From the NCBI RefSeq assembly GCF_003790525.1, contig NZ_CP033635.1: DNA of 64,000 bases. One strand, 5' to 3'. The position numbers were made by a program. This document shows, in pieces, positions 29,701-38,700 of this stretch. Every line of letters begins with the position of its first letter. Within the stretch, counting starts at the first letter, position 1. The DNA comes from Escherichia coli. Its GTDB lineage: Bacteria; Pseudomonadota; Gammaproteobacteria; Enterobacterales; Enterobacteriaceae.

Positions 29701-32700
29701 ACTACGGTCCGCTGAATGGTCAGAAATTGATTTTGATAATGCCCTGTGGACAATCCCTGAAAGCCGCATGAAAATGCGACGTAAACATGTCGTACCACTG
29801 TCACGACAGGCCACTGACATTCTGCTGCAGCTCAAAACTTTCTCCGGACAATACCGGCTGGTTTTCCCGGGACGTTGTGATATCAACAAGCCAATGAGCG
29901 AAGCCAGCATCAATATGGTGCTCAAACGTATCGGTTACGATGGCAGGGCAACCGGTCATGGTTTTCGTCACACCATGAGTACCATTCTGCACGAACAGGG
30001 CTTTAATTCTGCCTGGATTGAAATGCAGTTAGCTCATGTGGATAAAAATTCCATCAGGGGTACCTATAATCATGCCCTGTATCTCGATGGTCGCCGTGAA
30101 ATGATGCAATGGTACGCTGACTACATTGATTCACTTTCCATCCAGGAGAGTTAATTACACTTTGTCCTGAAATTATTCTCACAATCAATAACCTTTCCCT
30201 CTGATCTGTAAGATCAGAGGGATTCCGTTAACTTACAATAAGTGATATTGGTTGTCTGGAGATTTAGGGGGACGGTCTACTATAATAATTAGCAGGAGAT
30301 AATATGTCACTTAAGGCGATTGCCACTGCACTCGGAGTTTCTGTCACCACTGTCAGTCGGGCTCTTGGAGGCTATGCAGATGTGTCAGCTTCCACCCGTG
30401 CACGGGTGGAAGCTGAAGCTCGTCGACGCGGTTACCGTCCTAATACTCAGGCAAGAAGACTCAAAACCGGTAAAACCGATGCTGTCGGTCTGGTTTATCC
30501 TGGACGTGATGTGCCATTTAACAGTGGTGTTTTTATGGATATGGTCAGTTGCATCAGCCGGGAACTTGCTCACCATGATATTGACTTACTACTGATAGCT
30601 GATGATGAGCATGCCGATTGCCACAGCTATATGCGGCTTGTTGAAAGTCGCAGGGTTGATGCTCTCATCATTGCACACACTCTGGATGACGATCCCCGTA
30701 TCACACACCTTCATAAAGCAGGTATTCCATTTCTGGCTCTTGGTCGGGTACCATCTGGTCTGCCCTGTGCGTGGTTTGACTTTGATAATCATGCCGGGAC
30801 TGGACAGGCAACCCAGAAACTGATTGCTTTGGGACATAAACGTATTGCATTGTTGAGTGAAGACACTTCACATAGCTATGTTGTTGCAAGACGTCAGGGA
30901 TGGCTTGATGCACTGAATGAGCATGAACTGGAAGATACATGGCTGCGGCTGGTTTCTCCCACACGGCGAGCAGGATATCAGGCCGTGATGGAGTTAATGT
31001 CACTACCGATACCACCAACAGCTATTATTACTGACAATGACCTGAGTGGAGATGGTGCTGCCATGGCACTGCAGTTGAGCGGTCGTCTTTCAGGAAAAGA
31101 TGCGGTATCTCTGGTTGTATATGATGGTTTGCCACAGGACAGTATTATTGAGCTGGATGTGGCTGCAGTTATTCAGTCAACACGAAGCCTCGTTGGTCGC
31201 CAGATTTCCGAGATGATATATCAGATAATTACTGATTCATCATCAAAACCACTACAGGTTGTCTGGAACCCGGTATTTTATCCGGGAAAGACGATTCATC
31301 CTCCTTGCTCCTGATTTTTTTATCCAGCTCACATATCCGAAACGTTTTGGTTGATACCCGAAACGTTTCGGATCAACAGTAAGGCATCCCTGAGAAAGGA
31401 GAATGTCTTATGGTTTCAAAGTACTGCAGACTGAGCAGTCCTCGCTCTGATTTAATTATTAAAACCCGTCCACATGCAGAAATTATCTGGTGGGGCTCTG
31501 CACTGAAACATTTCTCACCGGATGACTGTGCCAGCCTGGAAAGACCGGTTGCGAATGGTCGTCTGGATATTGATACGCCACTAACACTGATGGCTGAAAA
31601 TGCCCTGGGACTTTTTAGCTCTCCGGGACTGGAAGGACACAGGAATGGGCTGGATGCATCTCCTGTTTTTTATACAGTTGACGTGGAACATACCGAAAAC
31701 ACTCTGAGACTTACCAGTGAAGATTCGGTAGCCGGCCTGCGTCTGGTCAGCGAGCTGGTGATGACGCCATCAGGAATTCTGAAAGTTCGTCATGCACTGA
31801 CCAACCTCAGAGAGGGGGACTGGCAGATAAATCGTTTCGCCATCACTTTACCTTTAGCGGAACGTGCGGAAGAAGTCATGGCTTTTCACGGACGCTGGAC
31901 TCGTGAATTTCAGCCGCACAGGGTACGTCTCACTCATGATGCTTTTGTTCTGGAAAATCGCAGAGGGCGGACATCTCATGAGCATTTTCCGGCGCTGATT
32001 GTCGGCACGCCAGGCTTCTCGGAACAACAGGGAGAGGTGTGGGCTGTGCATCTGGGGTGGAGTGGAAATCACCGCATGAGATGTGAGGCAAAAACTGACG
32101 GCAGGCGTTACGTTCAGGCTGAGGCTCTGTGGATGCCGGGTGAGAAGGCTCTCAGGAAGAATGAAACCCTGTACACCCCGTGGCTATATGCCTGCCACTC
32201 TGCGGATGGCCTGAATGGAATGAGTCAGCAATACCATCGTTTTTTGCGTGATGAAATTATCCGTTTCCCTGAGCAAAAACCCCGCCCTGTACATCTCAAT
32301 ACCTGGGAAGGTATTTATTTCAATCACAATCCTGATTACATCATGCAGATGGCTGAGCGTGCAGCAGCACTGGGCGTTGAACGTTTCATTATTGATGATG
32401 GCTGGTTTAAAGGACGTAACGATGACCGCGCGGCTCTGGGCGACTGGTATACCGATGAACAGAAATACCCGAACGGGCTGATGCCGGTTATTAAACATGT
32501 GAAATCTCTCGGTATGGAATTTGGCATATGGGTTGAGCCGGAAATGATTAACCCGGATTCTGACCTGTTTCGTCTTCATCCTGACTGGGTATTGTCAATG
32601 CCTGGATATTCCCAGCCAACCGGAAGATATCAGTATGTTCTTAACCTGAATATTCCAGAGGCCTTTGCTTACATTTATGAACGTTTCTTATGGTTACTGG

Positions 32701-35700: not shown

Positions 35701-38700
35701 TATGCTCCACAGTCCATGCTGGCTGAGGACGGCAGGCGTATCATTATGGCATGGATGAATATGTGGGATTCACCCGTGCCCACCCGCAGTGAAGCCTGGG
35801 CAGGATGTCTGACGCTGCCCAGAGAGGTTTTTGAGCGCGATGGCCGGCTGTGCCAGCGACCTGTGCGTGAAGTCGAATCTCTGCGCAAAAAATGCCAGCC
35901 ATTATCCCCTGTAAGGTTACAGGGTTTGCAATTACTGACCGAAAATGTACAGGCCGCAGAATTATTGGTGACGTGGCATACGGTTGACAGTCATGCGGAG
36001 CACTATGGCGTCCGCCTTGGAGACGGTCTGCGACTTTATGTGGATAATCAGGCCGGGCGACTGGTACTGTGGCGCTATTACCCTGAGGAAGGGTTGGATG
36101 GTTACCGCAGTGTTGAACTTCCTGATACAGAATATCTGACTCTTCGTATTTTCTTGGATCGTTCATCTGTTGAAGTGTTTGTTAACGATGGTGAGGCAAC
36201 CTTATCAAGTCGTATTTATCCGCAAGCGGACTCGAGACAATTATCGTTATATGCCGCTCATGGCGATGCGATATTAACTGATGGCACTTTATGGATGCTG
36301 ACCTGAGACATATCGATATCAGTATTTTTTCTGACATTATCTGTCATTACTTTGCCAGTACACATTAATTATCTTTGCTGTGTGCTTTTGGTAATGTGTT
36401 GCGATTATATATACCAGTCTGGTGAAGAATATGAATGGTATTTTGTGTTGATACAGAGAATATAAGAGTACCCACATTTGTTTTTATTTAAGGGGGTAAA
36501 ATGAATAAGTTACTTTTGGGTTTATCTCTTTTTTTATTACTGGAATACAATGCGTGTGCAGCAAAAACAGGGGGGCTAACGCTTGAACAAAGAATGGCAT
36601 TGCTGGAAGAACGCCTGGAAGCTGCAGAAAAAAGGGCGGAAAAAGCAGAAAGAATGTTAAAGAGTTTTGATATAGAACAACATTCTGAAATACGTCAAAT
36701 TAGTTCAGAGCAGAATAAAAAAGATGCTAACAGCTATGCAGTAGTTGAGTCAACAAAAGAAAAAACATCTTCTCCAGGTTTTCTGCTCTCTGGTTACAAT
36801 GATTTGAAGTTTTATGGTGATGTGGAGTTTAATATAGATGCTGCCAGTAAACCCGGTCAGTTAGTAATGATAAGTTCCGGGGCGAACAGTGAGTCAGTGA
36901 ATGAACGGTGGGACCTTAATGGCCGTATTCTATTAGGTTTTGACGGTACCCGTAAGCTTGATAATGGTTATTTCGCTGGATTTTCAGCACAACCACTGGC
37001 GGATATGCACGGTTCAGTGAATATTGATGATGCATTATTCTTTTTTGGAAAAGATGACGAGTGGAAAGTGAAAGTCGGTCGTTTTGAAGCTTACGATATG
37101 TTCCCTCTAAATCAGGATACTTTCATTGAGTATTCCGGTAATACAGCTAATGATATTTATGCTGATGGCCGTGGTTATATCTATATGATGAAAGAGGGAC
37201 GCGGTCGTTCTGACGCTGGTGGTAATTTCCTCATCAGTAAACAACTCGATAACTGGTATTTTGAGTTAAACACGTTACTTGAAGACGGAACATCTTTATA
37301 TAATAACGGTAATTATCATGGACGATATATGGAGCAGCAGAAAAATGTCGCTTATCTGCGCCCGGTAATTGCCTGGTCGCCAACGGAAGAATTCACAGTC
37401 TCCGCAGCGATGGAAGCGAACGTGGTAAAAAATGCTTATGGCTATACCGATAATAAGGGGAATTTTGTCGATCAGTCCAATCGTTCCGGTTATGGTATTA
37501 GCATGACATGGAACGGTCTGAAAACAGATCCGGAAAATGGCATCGTGGTTACTCTTAATACCGCCTATTTGGATGCCAGTAATGAGAAAGATTTCACTGC
37601 CAGTATTAATGCTCTGTGGAAACGTTTCGAACTGGGTTATATCTACGCACATAATAAGATTGATGAATTTAGTGGTGTCGTGTGTAATAATGGTTGCTGG
37701 ATTGATGGTGAAGGAATATACAACATTCACACCATTCATGCATCTTATCAGTTTGCTAATGTGATGGATATGGAGAACTTTAATATTTACCTCGGGGCTT
37801 ATTACTCAATTCTGGATAGTAACTGTAGATATAGTAATTGTGACATTACCGATGATCGTTACGGTGCCCGATTACGTTTCAAATACTTTTTTTGATGCAT
37901 AGTAACAAAGTATTGTTCCACACTTACATTAACGCGTTTTTCGGGCGCGTCATCAGCGATGCATACGAATGATCGCAGTCTGCCAATGGTCGATTTATCT
38001 TGGTTGCGCAGGGGCGAGCACCGGGCAGGTACCGGCGGCTGACTCTGAAGCTCTGAGTCGGGTAATTGCGTCAGGTCACGAAGGACTGACACGGGTATTG
38101 GTGGCAGGTGATGAAGTACTGAGTGTGGTAATTTCGGGGATGCAATGCAGGAGCTGAGTCAGGTTTGCACTGAGCTGAGGACCCGTAGCGAGCGGGTTCC
38201 TGCTATTTTTCGGTGTCAGGGGCGCAAGTCCCGACGTCGGGACTTGCCGGGAGATTGTCAGGTCATTGACCGGGTGTGAGCGGCTCGACGTAAGCGGTAG
38301 ATATGCCCAATTCCCCCCGATAAATTCATTACCAAACACATTATTCAATTTGTTTTTATTTTTCCGCTTTCAGTCATTATCGCTATCGCTTCGTCGGTAA
38401 TGACTCCAACTTATTGATAGTGTTTTATGTTCAGATAATGCCCGATGACTTTGTCATGCAGTGGATTTGCCCCTATATTTCCAGACACCTGTTATCACTT
38501 AACCCATTACTGGCCCGCTGCCGTAGATATTCCCGTGGCGAGCGATAACCCAGTGCACTATGCGGATGCCATTCGTTATAATGCTCGAACGCCTCTGCAA
38601 GGTTCTTTGCTGCCGTTAACCCGTCTGGTTTGGGCATGATACTGATGTAATCACGCTTTATCGTTTTCACGAAGCTCTCTGCTATGCCGTTACTCTCCGG

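What the first reader, a model, noticed from the sequence alone, without database searches (positions are those of the whole stretch)
30304..37895. Complete raffinose utilisation operon carried as island cargo
A LacI-type repressor, GH36 alpha-galactosidase, LacY-like permease, GH32 invertase and a glycoporin form a complete raf operon, which is classically plasmid-borne, integrated here next to pheU.
Basis: partly seen in the sequence, partly recalled or inferred. Interest (0 to 1): 0.4.

Follow-up and report, generated by a model that had tools for sequence, protein, structure and literature searches.

The report
Chromosomal raffinose operon beside pheU
This is an intact copy of the well-known E. 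coli raffinose-utilisation operon, sitting as the first cargo of a genomic island next to the pheU tRNA gene, an arrangement shared by hundreds of sequenced E. coli strains and therefore ordinary.

Summary
Five same-strand, uninterrupted genes lie directly behind tRNA-Phe (28718-28793, pheU context dsbD-yjdC) and a P4-type integrase (28970-30154):
- rafR, 30304-31314
- rafA, 31410-33536
- rafB, 33599-34876
- rafD, 34876-36306
- rafY, 36501-37895

All five products have the same lengths as those of IncF raf plasmids and are 98.5-99.6% identical to them. Catalytic and transport motifs are present, and twin palindromic operators flank the rafA -35 box.

1. Chromosomal raf is not unusual. Among 5,426 complete E. 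coli genomes, rafABD matches 557 chromosomal and 204 plasmid places. The tRNA-int-raf block is in 445 genomes: 102 directly at pheU and 189 directly at pheV.
2. 148 raf plasmids carry a 5'-truncated copy of this same integrase upstream of rafR. That lineage therefore probably moved from island to plasmid, not the reverse.
3. This strain's RafB has a private V97E change in a transmembrane helix.
4. pRSD2 itself could not be aligned. An indirect residue check suggests it belongs to a sister lineage.

Verdict: a known operon in a known kind of island, of low interest.

The parts
28718..28793 (+). tRNA-Phe (GAA), the pheU copy. It is the integration target and left boundary of the island.
   Evidence: ARAGORN and Rfam tRNA at 68 bits. 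The upstream genes cutA-dsbD-dicD/yjdC are those of a near-identical RefSeq genome. cadC lies on the far side of the island in that genome.
28970..30154 (+). P4-type tyrosine integrase, 394 aa from the RefSeq ATG (an upstream TTG at 28940 is also in frame). This is the generic pheU/pheV island integrase.
   Evidence: NCBIfam NF007246 integrase domain, E = 3e-92. The exact protein is seen on about 1,000 contigs. The same gene at 97.9-98.8% identity heads a pheV island with different cargo (L004), and that shared homology ends at window 30186.
30197..30221 (+). Hairpin with an 11-bp stem just after the integrase stop (CCCTCTGATCT-GTA-AGATCAGAGGG). It lies at the start of the raf-specific segment.
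   Evidence: Read directly from the sequence. The 3-nt loop is inverted (TAC) in plasmid pIP1206.
30239..30279 (+). Relic of 41 bp resembling the left terminal inverted repeat of IS2, immediately 5' of rafR. It overlaps a promoter-like TGGAGA-18-TATAAT (30257-30286).
   Evidence: blastn gives 92.7% identity to the end of the intact IS2 in pIP1206. The alignment shows an 8-bp deletion relative to plasmid copies. The promoter scan scores 10 of 12.
30304..31314 (+). rafR, a LacI-family repressor of 336 aa.
   Evidence: LacI-family hits cover residues 2-315. It is 98.8% identical, at equal length, to the pIP1206 copy.
31335..31373 (+). rafA control region with twin 18-bp near-palindromes. O1 is ATCCGAAACGTTTTGGTT (31335-31352) and O2 is ACCCGAAACGTTTCGGAT (31356-31373). 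Their centres are 21 bp apart and they bracket the -35-like TTGATA (31351-31356).
   Evidence: O2 and the adjoining stretch are conserved exactly in raf loci of six Klebsiella, Raoultella and Enterobacter species that are only about 67% identical overall. The same layout is present in the 79%-identical APEC-type lineage.
31410..33536 (+). rafA, a GH36 alpha-galactosidase of 708 aa.
   Evidence: Pfam Glyco_hydro_36N, Melibiase (E = 6e-113) and Glyco_hydro_36C. KWDMN at 439 and GGGRID at 486 are present. The closest solved structures are GH36 alpha-galactosidases such as AgaSK and AgaA/B. It is 99.6% identical to the plasmid copy.
33599..34876 (+). rafB, a LacY-family oligosaccharide:H+ symporter of 425 aa. 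It carries the private substitution V97E (base 33888).
   Evidence: TIGR00882 at 674 bits. LacY structures match at E = 3e-151. The LacY functional residues are conserved as E129, R147, E272, R305, H325 and E328. The single base difference from NZ_CP116100 over 10 kb lies here. The exact protein is seen on only 2 contigs.
34876..36306 (+). rafD, a GH32 invertase of 476 aa. Its ATG overlaps the rafB stop codon by one base.
   Evidence: TIGR01322 at 460 bits against a cut-off of 356. NDPNG at 37, RDP at 159 and ECP at 214 are present. It is 98.5% identical to the plasmid copy. PDB GH32 hits are listed.
36501..37895 (+). rafY, an outer-membrane porin of 464 aa. It follows a 194-bp AT-rich gap and has a lower G+C content than rafABD.
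   Evidence: Pfam PF16966 'Porin-like glycoporin RafY' over positions 1-372 of 372, E = 4e-148. It is 99.1% identical to the plasmid copy. There is no PDB relative at E <= 0.01. G+C is 0.40 against 0.49-0.50.
38396..39166 (.). Nested IS debris closing the raf module: an IS1 end (38396-38461), an IS2 right-end fragment (38462 to about 38756), and a reversed IS1 fragment (to about 39166).
   Evidence: blastn to IS1 and IS2 in pIP1206, the sequence itself, and RefSeq partial transposase annotations. Homology with plasmid raf regions ends at 38088.

Best explanation
The segment is an intact copy of the known E. coli raf system, rafR-rafA-rafB-rafD plus rafY. It is carried as the integrase-proximal cargo of a large mosaic genomic island inserted at the pheU tRNA-Phe gene.

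The inferred working is as follows.
- RafY lets raffinose-family oligosaccharides cross the outer membrane.
- RafB imports them with protons.
- RafA removes the alpha-1,6-galactose, giving galactose and sucrose.
- RafD splits the sucrose into glucose and fructose.
- RafR represses the rafA promoter by binding the twin operators O1 and O2 around its -35 box, until an alpha-galactoside inducer is present.

What is shown here: gene content, order, intactness, motifs, operator architecture, near-identity to plasmid raf operons, and the location at pheU.

What is inferred from the published pRSD2 work, and not tested here: substrate flow, induction, and growth on raffinose.

The int-raf junction is ancestral to the widespread IncF plasmid copies, because those copies retain a 5'-truncated remnant of the same integrase. 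For this lineage the likeliest history is therefore from a tRNA-Phe island to plasmids.
For: Gene content and function:
- Five intact co-oriented ORFs have the expected family matches.
- Lengths equal those of the IncF plasmid pIP1206 proteins, at 98.5-99.6% aa identity.
- The DNA is 98.5% identical to pIP1206 over window 29395-38088. 164 plasmids hold at least 80% of the region.
- Catalytic motifs are present: GH32 NDPNG/RDP/ECP and GH36 KWDMN/GGGRID. The six LacY functional residues are conserved in RafB.
- Twin palindromes bracket TTGATA. This control region is conserved in raf loci that are about 67-79% identical overall.

Location:
- tRNA-Phe and the integrase lie immediately upstream, in the dsbD-yjdC context.
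- cadC lies on the far side in a near-identical genome.
- The identical block is found in many RefSeq chromosomes.
- 102 genomes have raf within 2 kb of yjdC, and 189 have it within 2 kb of yqgA/pheV.

Direction of transfer:
- The plasmid integrase is cut by IS2 at window 29395.
- All the raf-bearing plasmids among the 30 rows listed share that truncation point (28 of the 30).
- 148 plasmids carry the truncated-integrase-to-rafR junction.
- Only 2 plasmids hold a near-full integrase. The one inspected is not next to raf.
Against: - No phenotype can be tested here.
- This strain's RafB has a private V97E change. It puts a charge at a position that is V in the two other raf lineages and I in LacY, inside transmembrane helix III. 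It could impair uptake, or it could be a sequencing error.
- pRSD2 itself could not be aligned. The window's RafB has R139, whereas the experimentally studied RafB has Ser-139 (title of Van Camp 2007, in PMC12815263 ref. 75). The classical operon may therefore be a sister lineage, such as the K88-plasmid type, which is 95% identical in nucleotides over rafR-rafD and 89.6% over rafY.
- The island's right-hand att repeat is not in the window.
- Plasmid and chromosomal copies differ by about 1-3%, so the actual donor island was not this one.
Confidence: 0.85

Rival explanations
1. The plasmid came first. The raf module was captured by the pheU/pheV island from a raf plasmid, for example by homologous recombination through the integrase fragment on the left and IS1/IS2 copies on the right, or by IS-mediated transposition. 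This is what the first reader's wording implies.
For: - raf was first described on plasmids and is still called plasmid-borne (PMC4809568, PMC12815263).
- The module is bracketed by IS relics: an IS2-end relic at 30239-30279 and IS1/IS2 debris at 38396-39166.
- The K88-plasmid lineage has raf without any integrase fragment.
- The low G+C content of rafY suggests modular assembly.
Against: - The IncF copies carry a 5'-truncated integrase pseudogene with no tRNA or att site. Such a fragment can only derive from a full-length gene like the chromosomal one.
- No plasmid was found with a complete integrase next to raf.
- The chromosomal form is more frequent: 557 places against 204.
Confidence: 0.2
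2. The operon is present but not functional for raffinose in this particular strain, because RafB V97E disables the permease. The cluster would then be a recently inactivated remnant.
For: - The only base in 10 kb that differs from NZ_CP116100 creates V97E.
- That exact protein is on 2 contigs, against about 1,000 for the other Raf proteins.
- The position is V in all three raf lineages and I94 in LacY, within a transmembrane helix.
Against: - It is a single missense change away from the six known functional residues, which are all intact.
- No stops or frameshifts occur anywhere in the operon.
- LacY could supply some raffinose uptake. This last point rests on my own knowledge and was not tested.
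Confidence: 0.15
3. The cluster is a general alpha-galactoside and sucrose module whose selected role is the use of soybean-type oligosaccharides (stachyose, raffinose, melibiose) in the poultry gut, rather than raffinose specifically.
For: - Two association studies link raf genes to chicken isolates and to soybean-based feed (PMC12815263, PMC12987596). The second also lists hsdR, a 'cobalamin adenosyltransferase' and pap genes. Genes with the first two annotations lie in this island within the window, and a papA fragment lies in its continuation in NZ_CP116100.
- About half of the 25 best chromosomal matches come from poultry or other birds.
- The RafY family is described as passing several oligosaccharides (PMC4827864).
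Against: This is an ecological gloss rather than a different mechanism. The host tally is ranked by identity to the window and is therefore clonally biased. No substrate data were produced here.
Confidence: 0.4

Closest known systems
raf operon of E. coli raffinose plasmids (pRSD2: rafR, rafA, rafB, rafD; Aslanidis et al. 1989, and rafY; Ulmke et al. 1997, both as cited in PMC4809568)
   Same: The genes, order, orientation and protein families are the same. A repressor gene lies upstream of a promoter with two operators. rafY lies downstream.
   Different: The location here is chromosomal, at pheU behind an integrase. pRSD2 itself could not be aligned. RafB residue 139 is Arg here, but Ser in the RafB studied experimentally (paper title only), so pRSD2 may belong to a sister lineage.
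raf region of IncF resistance plasmids such as pIP1206 (NC_010558.1)
   Same: The DNA is 98.5% identical over window 29395-38088. All five proteins have equal lengths and are 98.5-99.6% identical. The IS2-end relic and the hairpin 5' of rafR are shared.
   Different: The plasmid copy has only the 3' 760 bp of the integrase, cut by an intact IS2, and no tRNA. It has 8 extra bp in the IS2 relic and an inverted hairpin loop. Its RafB has V97.
K88 (F4) fimbrial plasmid raf operon (p14ODK88, NZ_MG904991.1)
   Same: rafR-A-B-D-Y are in the same order with identical protein lengths.
   Different: Nucleotide identity is only 95% over rafR-rafD and 89.6% over rafY. RafR is 87.5% and RafY 86.6% identical at the protein level. 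There is no integrase fragment, and homology starts at window 30291.
APEC-type chromosomal raf variant (for example NZ_CP126937.1, locus L005)
   Same: rafR-A-B-D with the same twin-operator layout.
   Different: Nucleotide identity is 79%. Downstream it has a crr-like IIA gene, a fructokinase-like kinase and a 498-aa carbohydrate porin instead of rafY, and its island context is different.
pheU/pheV-associated genomic islands of E. coli headed by a P4-type integrase
   Same: There is a tRNA-Phe target, an adjacent tyrosine integrase, mosaic IS-scarred cargo and variable presence among strains. The same island occurs at pheV in strain 1409.
   Different: The first cargo here is a sugar-catabolism operon followed by defence-type genes, rather than the virulence loci usually described for these sites. 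That comparison rests on my own knowledge.

Membership tests
E. coli raf (raffinose) operon | Gene order rafR-rafA-rafB-rafD(-rafY) on one strand | tested here: met
   ORFs at 30304-37895 are all on the + strand. RefSeq annotation of the identical DNA agrees.
E. coli raf (raffinose) operon | RafA is a GH36 alpha-galactosidase of 708 aa with catalytic motifs | tested here: met
   Pfam GH36 N, Melibiase and GH36 C domains. KWDMN and GGGRID are present. GH36 structures are the best PDB hits.
E. coli raf (raffinose) operon | RafB is a LacY-family oligosaccharide:H+ symporter of 425 aa with the LacY functional residues | tested here: met
   TIGR00882 at 674 bits. LacY matches at E = 3e-151. E129, R147, E272, R305, H325 and E328 are present. 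Caveat: the private V97E change.
E. coli raf (raffinose) operon | RafD is a GH32 invertase of 476 aa with NDPNG, RDP and EC motifs | tested here: met
   TIGR01322 scores above its cut-off. The motifs are at residues 37, 159 and 214.
E. coli raf (raffinose) operon | A LacI-type RafR, with two palindromic operators flanking the -35 box of the rafA promoter | tested here: met
   LacI-family hits. O1 is at 31335-31352 and O2 at 31356-31373, around TTGATA. Actual binding is not testable here. The published operator layout is recalled from memory, because the paper is not held.
E. coli raf (raffinose) operon | RafY is an outer-membrane porin of the RafY family | tested here: met
   PF16966 over the full model, E = 4e-148.
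E. coli raf (raffinose) operon | Sequence identity to the reference pRSD2 operon | not testable with these tools
   pRSD2 is not in the plasmid collection, and the original papers are not held. Proxies: 98.5-99% identity to IncF raf plasmids and 95%/89.6% to a K88 plasmid.
E. coli raf (raffinose) operon | Confers inducible growth on raffinose | not testable with these tools
   This needs a culture experiment.
tRNA-associated genomic island (pheU/pheV, P4-type integrase) | Inserted at the 3' end of a tRNA gene, with an adjacent tyrosine integrase | tested here: met
   tRNA-Phe is at 28718-28793. The integrase is at 28970-30154.
tRNA-associated genomic island (pheU/pheV, P4-type integrase) | Variable presence among strains at the same locus | tested here: met
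   raf lies within 2 kb of yjdC in 102 of 5,426 genomes. The other genomes that match do so only through the dsbD-yjdC half of the query or through raf lying elsewhere.
tRNA-associated genomic island (pheU/pheV, P4-type integrase) | Flanking direct repeat of the tRNA 3' end at the distal boundary | tested here: inconclusive
   There is no second copy in the window, allowing up to 3 mismatches. However, the island runs past the window end: it is about 72.7 kb to cadC in NZ_CP116100.
tRNA-associated genomic island (pheU/pheV, P4-type integrase) | Atypical composition and mosaic, IS-scarred structure | tested here: met
   G+C falls to 0.33-0.46 across the island. IS1 and IS2 debris and a second integrase fragment are present.

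The most novel reading that the evidence does not exclude
The widespread IncF-plasmid raf module, and perhaps plasmid raf in general, descends from a tRNA-Phe integrative island in which raf was already fused to a P4-type integrase. IS2 then cut it out and moved it onto plasmids. On this view the textbook 'plasmid-borne' raffinose operon is secondarily plasmid-borne. Its main reservoir in E. coli is a pheU/pheV island that is enriched in poultry strains fed soybean oligosaccharides.
Probability: 0.55. Interest if true: 0.3.

Novelty: already known. Interest (0 to 1): 0.15.

Why it matters
The practical value is mostly correct annotation. RefSeq labels these genes generically, as 'substrate-binding domain-containing protein', 'MFS transporter' and 'carbohydrate porin', although they are the raf genes.

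The distribution figures correct a habit in the literature of calling raf plasmid-borne. In complete genomes it is more often chromosomal, at pheV or pheU.

The truncated integrase on IncF plasmids gives a simple, testable marker for the direction of spread of a diet-linked trait that two recent association studies tie to chicken E. coli.

None of this opens a long-standing question.

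Tried and rejected
- I looked for the distal att repeat of the island in the window and found none. 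The island extends beyond base 64000.
- I tried to read the original raf papers (Ulmke 1997, PMC179467; Van Camp 2007, PMC2440673). They are not held, so the pRSD2 details rest on citations in other papers and on memory.
- Literature searches for raffinose with pheU, pheV or genomic island found no description of this arrangement.
- I scanned one genome per species for the O2/promoter motif to find a donor. Only six Klebsiella, Raoultella and Enterobacter chromosomes matched, at about 67% overall identity, so no donor was identified.
- An Rfam scan of 28000-40000 found nothing but the tRNA.
- The promoter and terminator scans were no richer than shuffled sequence, so I make no claim about a separate rafY promoter.
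- I considered an ancestral IS2-raf-IS2 composite transposon. An IS2-end relic lies on the left and an IS2 fragment on the right, in the same orientation. I did not adopt the idea, because unrelated DNA and an IS1 end lie between rafY and the right-hand IS2.
- A plasmid with a near-complete integrase (NZ_CP137739.1) proved to be an F-prime-like capture of the chromosomal yqgA-pheV region with capsule genes and no raf.

Full report
**Observation.** The ORF list shows five uninterrupted + strand reading frames:
- 30304-31314 (336 aa)
- 31410-33536 (708 aa)
- 33533-34876 (447 aa from a GTG; 425 aa from the ATG at 33599, which RefSeq uses and which has a GAGG upstream)
- 34876-36306 (476 aa)
- 36501-37895 (464 aa)

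Profile searches assign them as follows. The first is a LacI-family regulator. The third is an oligosaccharide MFS / galactoside permease (TIGR00882, 674 bits against a cut-off of 220). The fourth is a GH32 hydrolase of the scrB family (460 bits against 356). The second has GH36 N-terminal, Melibiase and GH36 C-terminal domains. The fifth matches Pfam PF16966 'Porin-like glycoporin RafY' across the whole model (E = 4e-148).

The functional motifs are intact:
- RafD has NDPNG, RDP and ECP.
- RafA has KWDMN and GGGRID.
- RafB has the six LacY functional residues, as E129, R147, E272, R305, H325 and E328.

The rafD ATG overlaps the rafB stop codon by one base. rafY follows a 194-bp AT-rich gap.

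**Surroundings.** The window is E. coli chromosome. The 10 kb from 28600 to 38600 is essentially identical to many RefSeq chromosomes. The only tRNA in the window is tRNA-Phe(GAA) at 28718-28793. It is preceded by aspA-dcuA-cutA-dsbD-dicD/yjdC. In the near-identical genome NZ_CP116100 the foreign DNA ends at cadC, about 72.7 kb further on. This is the pheU locus; pheV lies beside yqgA.

A 394-aa tyrosine integrase lies at 28970-30154, between the tRNA and rafR. The same integrase, at about 98% identity, heads a pheV island with unrelated capsule cargo. That shared homology stops at window 30186, so the raf-specific segment starts there.

The raf-specific segment opens with two small features:
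- a hairpin with an 11-bp stem (30197-30221)
- a 41-bp relic of an IS2 end (30239-30279), which overlaps a promoter-like TGGAGA-18-TATAAT just before rafR

Downstream of rafY, homology with plasmid raf regions ends at 38088. Nested IS1 and IS2 debris follows at 38396-39166. No second copy of the tRNA 3' end is in the window, because the island continues beyond base 64000.

**Regulation.** The 95-bp rafR-rafA spacer holds two 18-bp near-palindromes, with centres 21 bp apart:
- ATCCGAAACGTTTTGGTT (31335-31352)
- ACCCGAAACGTTTCGGAT (31356-31373)

They bracket a -35-like TTGATA. This agrees with my recollection of the published twin-operator arrangement of the raf promoter; the paper is not held, so this is memory and not a tool result.

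Independent support for constraint comes from conservation. A 30-nt pattern covering O2 and the following stretch matches exactly in raf loci of six Klebsiella, Raoultella and Enterobacter species. Those loci are only about 67% identical to the window overall. The same layout is present in a 79%-identical E. coli lineage.

**Relation to plasmid raf operons.** In the plasmid collection, 164 records hold at least 80% of 30200-38000, the best at 99.0% identity. Against the IncF plasmid pIP1206 the five proteins have identical lengths and 98.8, 99.6, 99.1, 98.5 and 99.1% identity.

One indirect clue is available. The window's RafB and the pIP1206 RafB both have Arg139. The title of the mutational study of RafB names Ser-139 (Van Camp 2007, listed in PMC12815263 ref. 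75). Ser139 is found in two other E. coli raf lineages seen here:
- a K88 fimbrial plasmid (95% nucleotide identity over rafR-rafD and 89.6% over rafY)
- an APEC-type chromosomal variant (79% identity)

The classical operon may therefore be a sister lineage of the one in the window.

**Distribution.** A rafABD query matched 680 of 5,426 complete E. coli genomes, at 557 chromosomal and 204 plasmid places. The tRNA-int-raf block is at least 80% covered in 445 genomes.

To separate the two tRNA-Phe loci, I built two synthetic queries. Each joined 1.6 kb of flanking core genes to 1.6 kb of rafR-rafA. raf lies within about 2 kb of dsbD-yjdC (pheU) in 102 genomes. It lies within about 2 kb of yqgA (pheV) in 189 genomes.

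The remaining genomes include tandem arrangements. In ETEC E24377A, int-raf sits at pheV behind an SPI-7-type element and a tRNA-like att copy, and it has different downstream cargo. In broiler strain 1409, the first ~23 kb of the window's island (int-raf through the type I R-M hsdS/hsdM genes, as far as the fetched locus L015 reaches) is found at pheV in the same order.

The chromosomal arrangement is therefore common. It has been in public genomes for years, although the papers found still call raf plasmid-borne (PMC4809568, PMC12815263), and no paper describing raf at pheU or pheV was found.

**Direction of transfer.** The pIP1206 copy is homologous to the window from 29395, which is inside the integrase gene. 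Its integrase is cut at that point by an intact IS2. All 28 raf-bearing plasmids among the 30 listed share this truncation point. 148 plasmids carry the truncated-integrase-to-rafR junction. Only two plasmids hold a near-complete integrase, and the one inspected is not next to raf.

A 5'-truncated integrase with no att site can only be a remnant of a full gene. The simplest history for this lineage is therefore that an int-raf island was the source of the IncF plasmid copies. This is an inference. The 1-3% divergence shows that the donor was not this exact island. The K88 lineage lacks the integrase fragment, so the deeper origin of raf stays open.

**Caveat for this strain.** Over 28600-38600 the window differs from NZ_CP116100 by one base, A at 33888. 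This changes RafB Val97 to Glu. The position is Val in all three raf lineages and Ile94 in LacY, within a transmembrane helix. The exact protein is on record on 2 contigs, against about 1,000 for the other Raf proteins. It may be harmless, disabling, or a sequencing error.

**Mechanism.** The following rests on the family assignments above and on the published pRSD2 work as cited in PMC4809568 and PMC4827864.
- RafY provides outer-membrane passage. It is historically named a glycoporin, but a later paper is titled as showing a general diffusion pore.
- RafB takes up raffinose with protons.
- RafA releases galactose and sucrose.
- RafD splits sucrose.
- RafR represses the operon through O1 and O2 until an alpha-galactoside is present.

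Gene content, intactness and control-region architecture are shown here. Substrate flow, induction and phenotype are inferred.

**Context and ecology.** Two recent association studies link raf genes to chicken isolates and soybean-based feed (PMC12815263, PMC12987596). The second also lists hsdR, a 'cobalamin adenosyltransferase' and pap genes. Genes with the first two annotations lie in this island within the window, and a papA fragment lies in its continuation in NZ_CP116100. About half of the 25 closest chromosomal matches are from poultry or other birds, though that list is clonally biased.

**Verdict.** The observation and the interpretation are both correct. The object is a known operon in a known kind of island, and the arrangement is common. 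The only mildly new points are the chromosome-majority distribution, the probable island-to-plasmid direction, and the private RafB variant. Interest is low.

Noticed in passing
window 33888 (rafB codon 97): A private missense change, V97E, in RafB. It is the only base in 28600-38600 that differs from NZ_CP116100. The position is V in the other raf lineages and I94 in LacY, within a transmembrane helix. The exact protein is on only 2 contigs in the 15-billion-protein collection.
   Followed up: yes
window 29395-30154, and plasmid loci such as L002 5196-5960: IncF raf plasmids carry a 5'-truncated copy of the pheU/pheV integrase directly upstream of rafR, cut by IS2 at the same base in all 28 raf-bearing plasmids among the 30 listed. 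148 plasmids hold this junction.
   Followed up: yes
window 30239-30286: A 41-bp IS2-end relic lies just 5' of rafR. The chromosomal copy lacks 8 bp (CCAGTCTA) that the plasmid copies have. This places TGGAGA 18 bp from TATAAT, against 26 bp in the plasmid, and so may alter rafR expression.
   Followed up: partly
window 30197-30221: The hairpin after the integrase stop has the loop GTA here but TAC in pIP1206. The loop is inverted between otherwise identical stems.
   Followed up: no
L005 (NZ_CP126937.1, 708926-718628): A second chromosomal raf lineage is present in about 227 records at about 79-80% nucleotide identity. It has rafR-A-B-D followed by a crr-like IIA gene, a fructokinase-like kinase and a 498-aa carbohydrate porin instead of rafY, in a different island.
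   Followed up: partly
L014 (K88 plasmid p14ODK88, NZ_MG904991.1): A third raf lineage sits on a K88 fimbrial plasmid. It is 95% identical in nucleotides over rafR-rafD and 89.6% over rafY, with no integrase fragment. Its RafB has Ser139, like the experimentally studied RafB.
   Followed up: partly
window 36001-38000: The rafY region has G+C 0.40 against 0.49-0.50 for rafA-rafD, and it diverges faster between lineages, which suggests a separate origin. RafY has no sequence relative among solved structures at E <= 0.01.
   Followed up: partly
window 42664-46306 (- strand): A three-gene cluster: a WYL-domain regulator, a PDC-M09A-like protein, and a PDC-M40B-like protein that RefSeq calls 'cobalamin adenosyltransferase'. 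These are candidate anti-phage defence genes. The last annotation also appears in a chicken-association gene list (PMC12987596).
   Followed up: partly
window 48094-56874 (- strand): A low-G+C block (0.33-0.35). It holds a 313-aa hypothetical protein, a 540-aa AAA ATPase with AriA/NsnB-like matches, and a type I restriction-modification system (hsdS, hsdM, hsdR).
   Followed up: partly
window 40338-42011 (- strand): An EptA/CptA-like phosphoethanolamine transferase lies within the island. It scores far below every MCR family cut-off.
   Followed up: no
window 59026-62032: A PD-Lambda-2_B-like XRE-family protein lies next to a hypothetical protein and a thymidylate-synthase-like gene. A MazG-like gene is nearby, and a dGTPase-family gene lies just beyond the window in NZ_CP116100. 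This may be a nucleotide-targeting defence cluster.
   Followed up: no
L015 (NZ_CP063369.1) and L016 (NC_009801.1): In broiler strain 1409 the same gene order, from int-raf through to the type I R-M hsdS/hsdM genes (as far as the fetched locus reaches), occupies pheV instead of pheU. In ETEC E24377A, int-raf sits at pheV in tandem behind an SPI-7-type element, with a tRNA-like att copy and different downstream cargo.
   Followed up: partly
L006-L011 (Klebsiella, Raoultella, Enterobacter): The O2 operator and the adjoining promoter stretch of rafA are conserved base for base in chromosomal raf loci that are only about 67% identical overall. R. terrigena also has a rafY-like segment at 72% identity.
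   Followed up: partly
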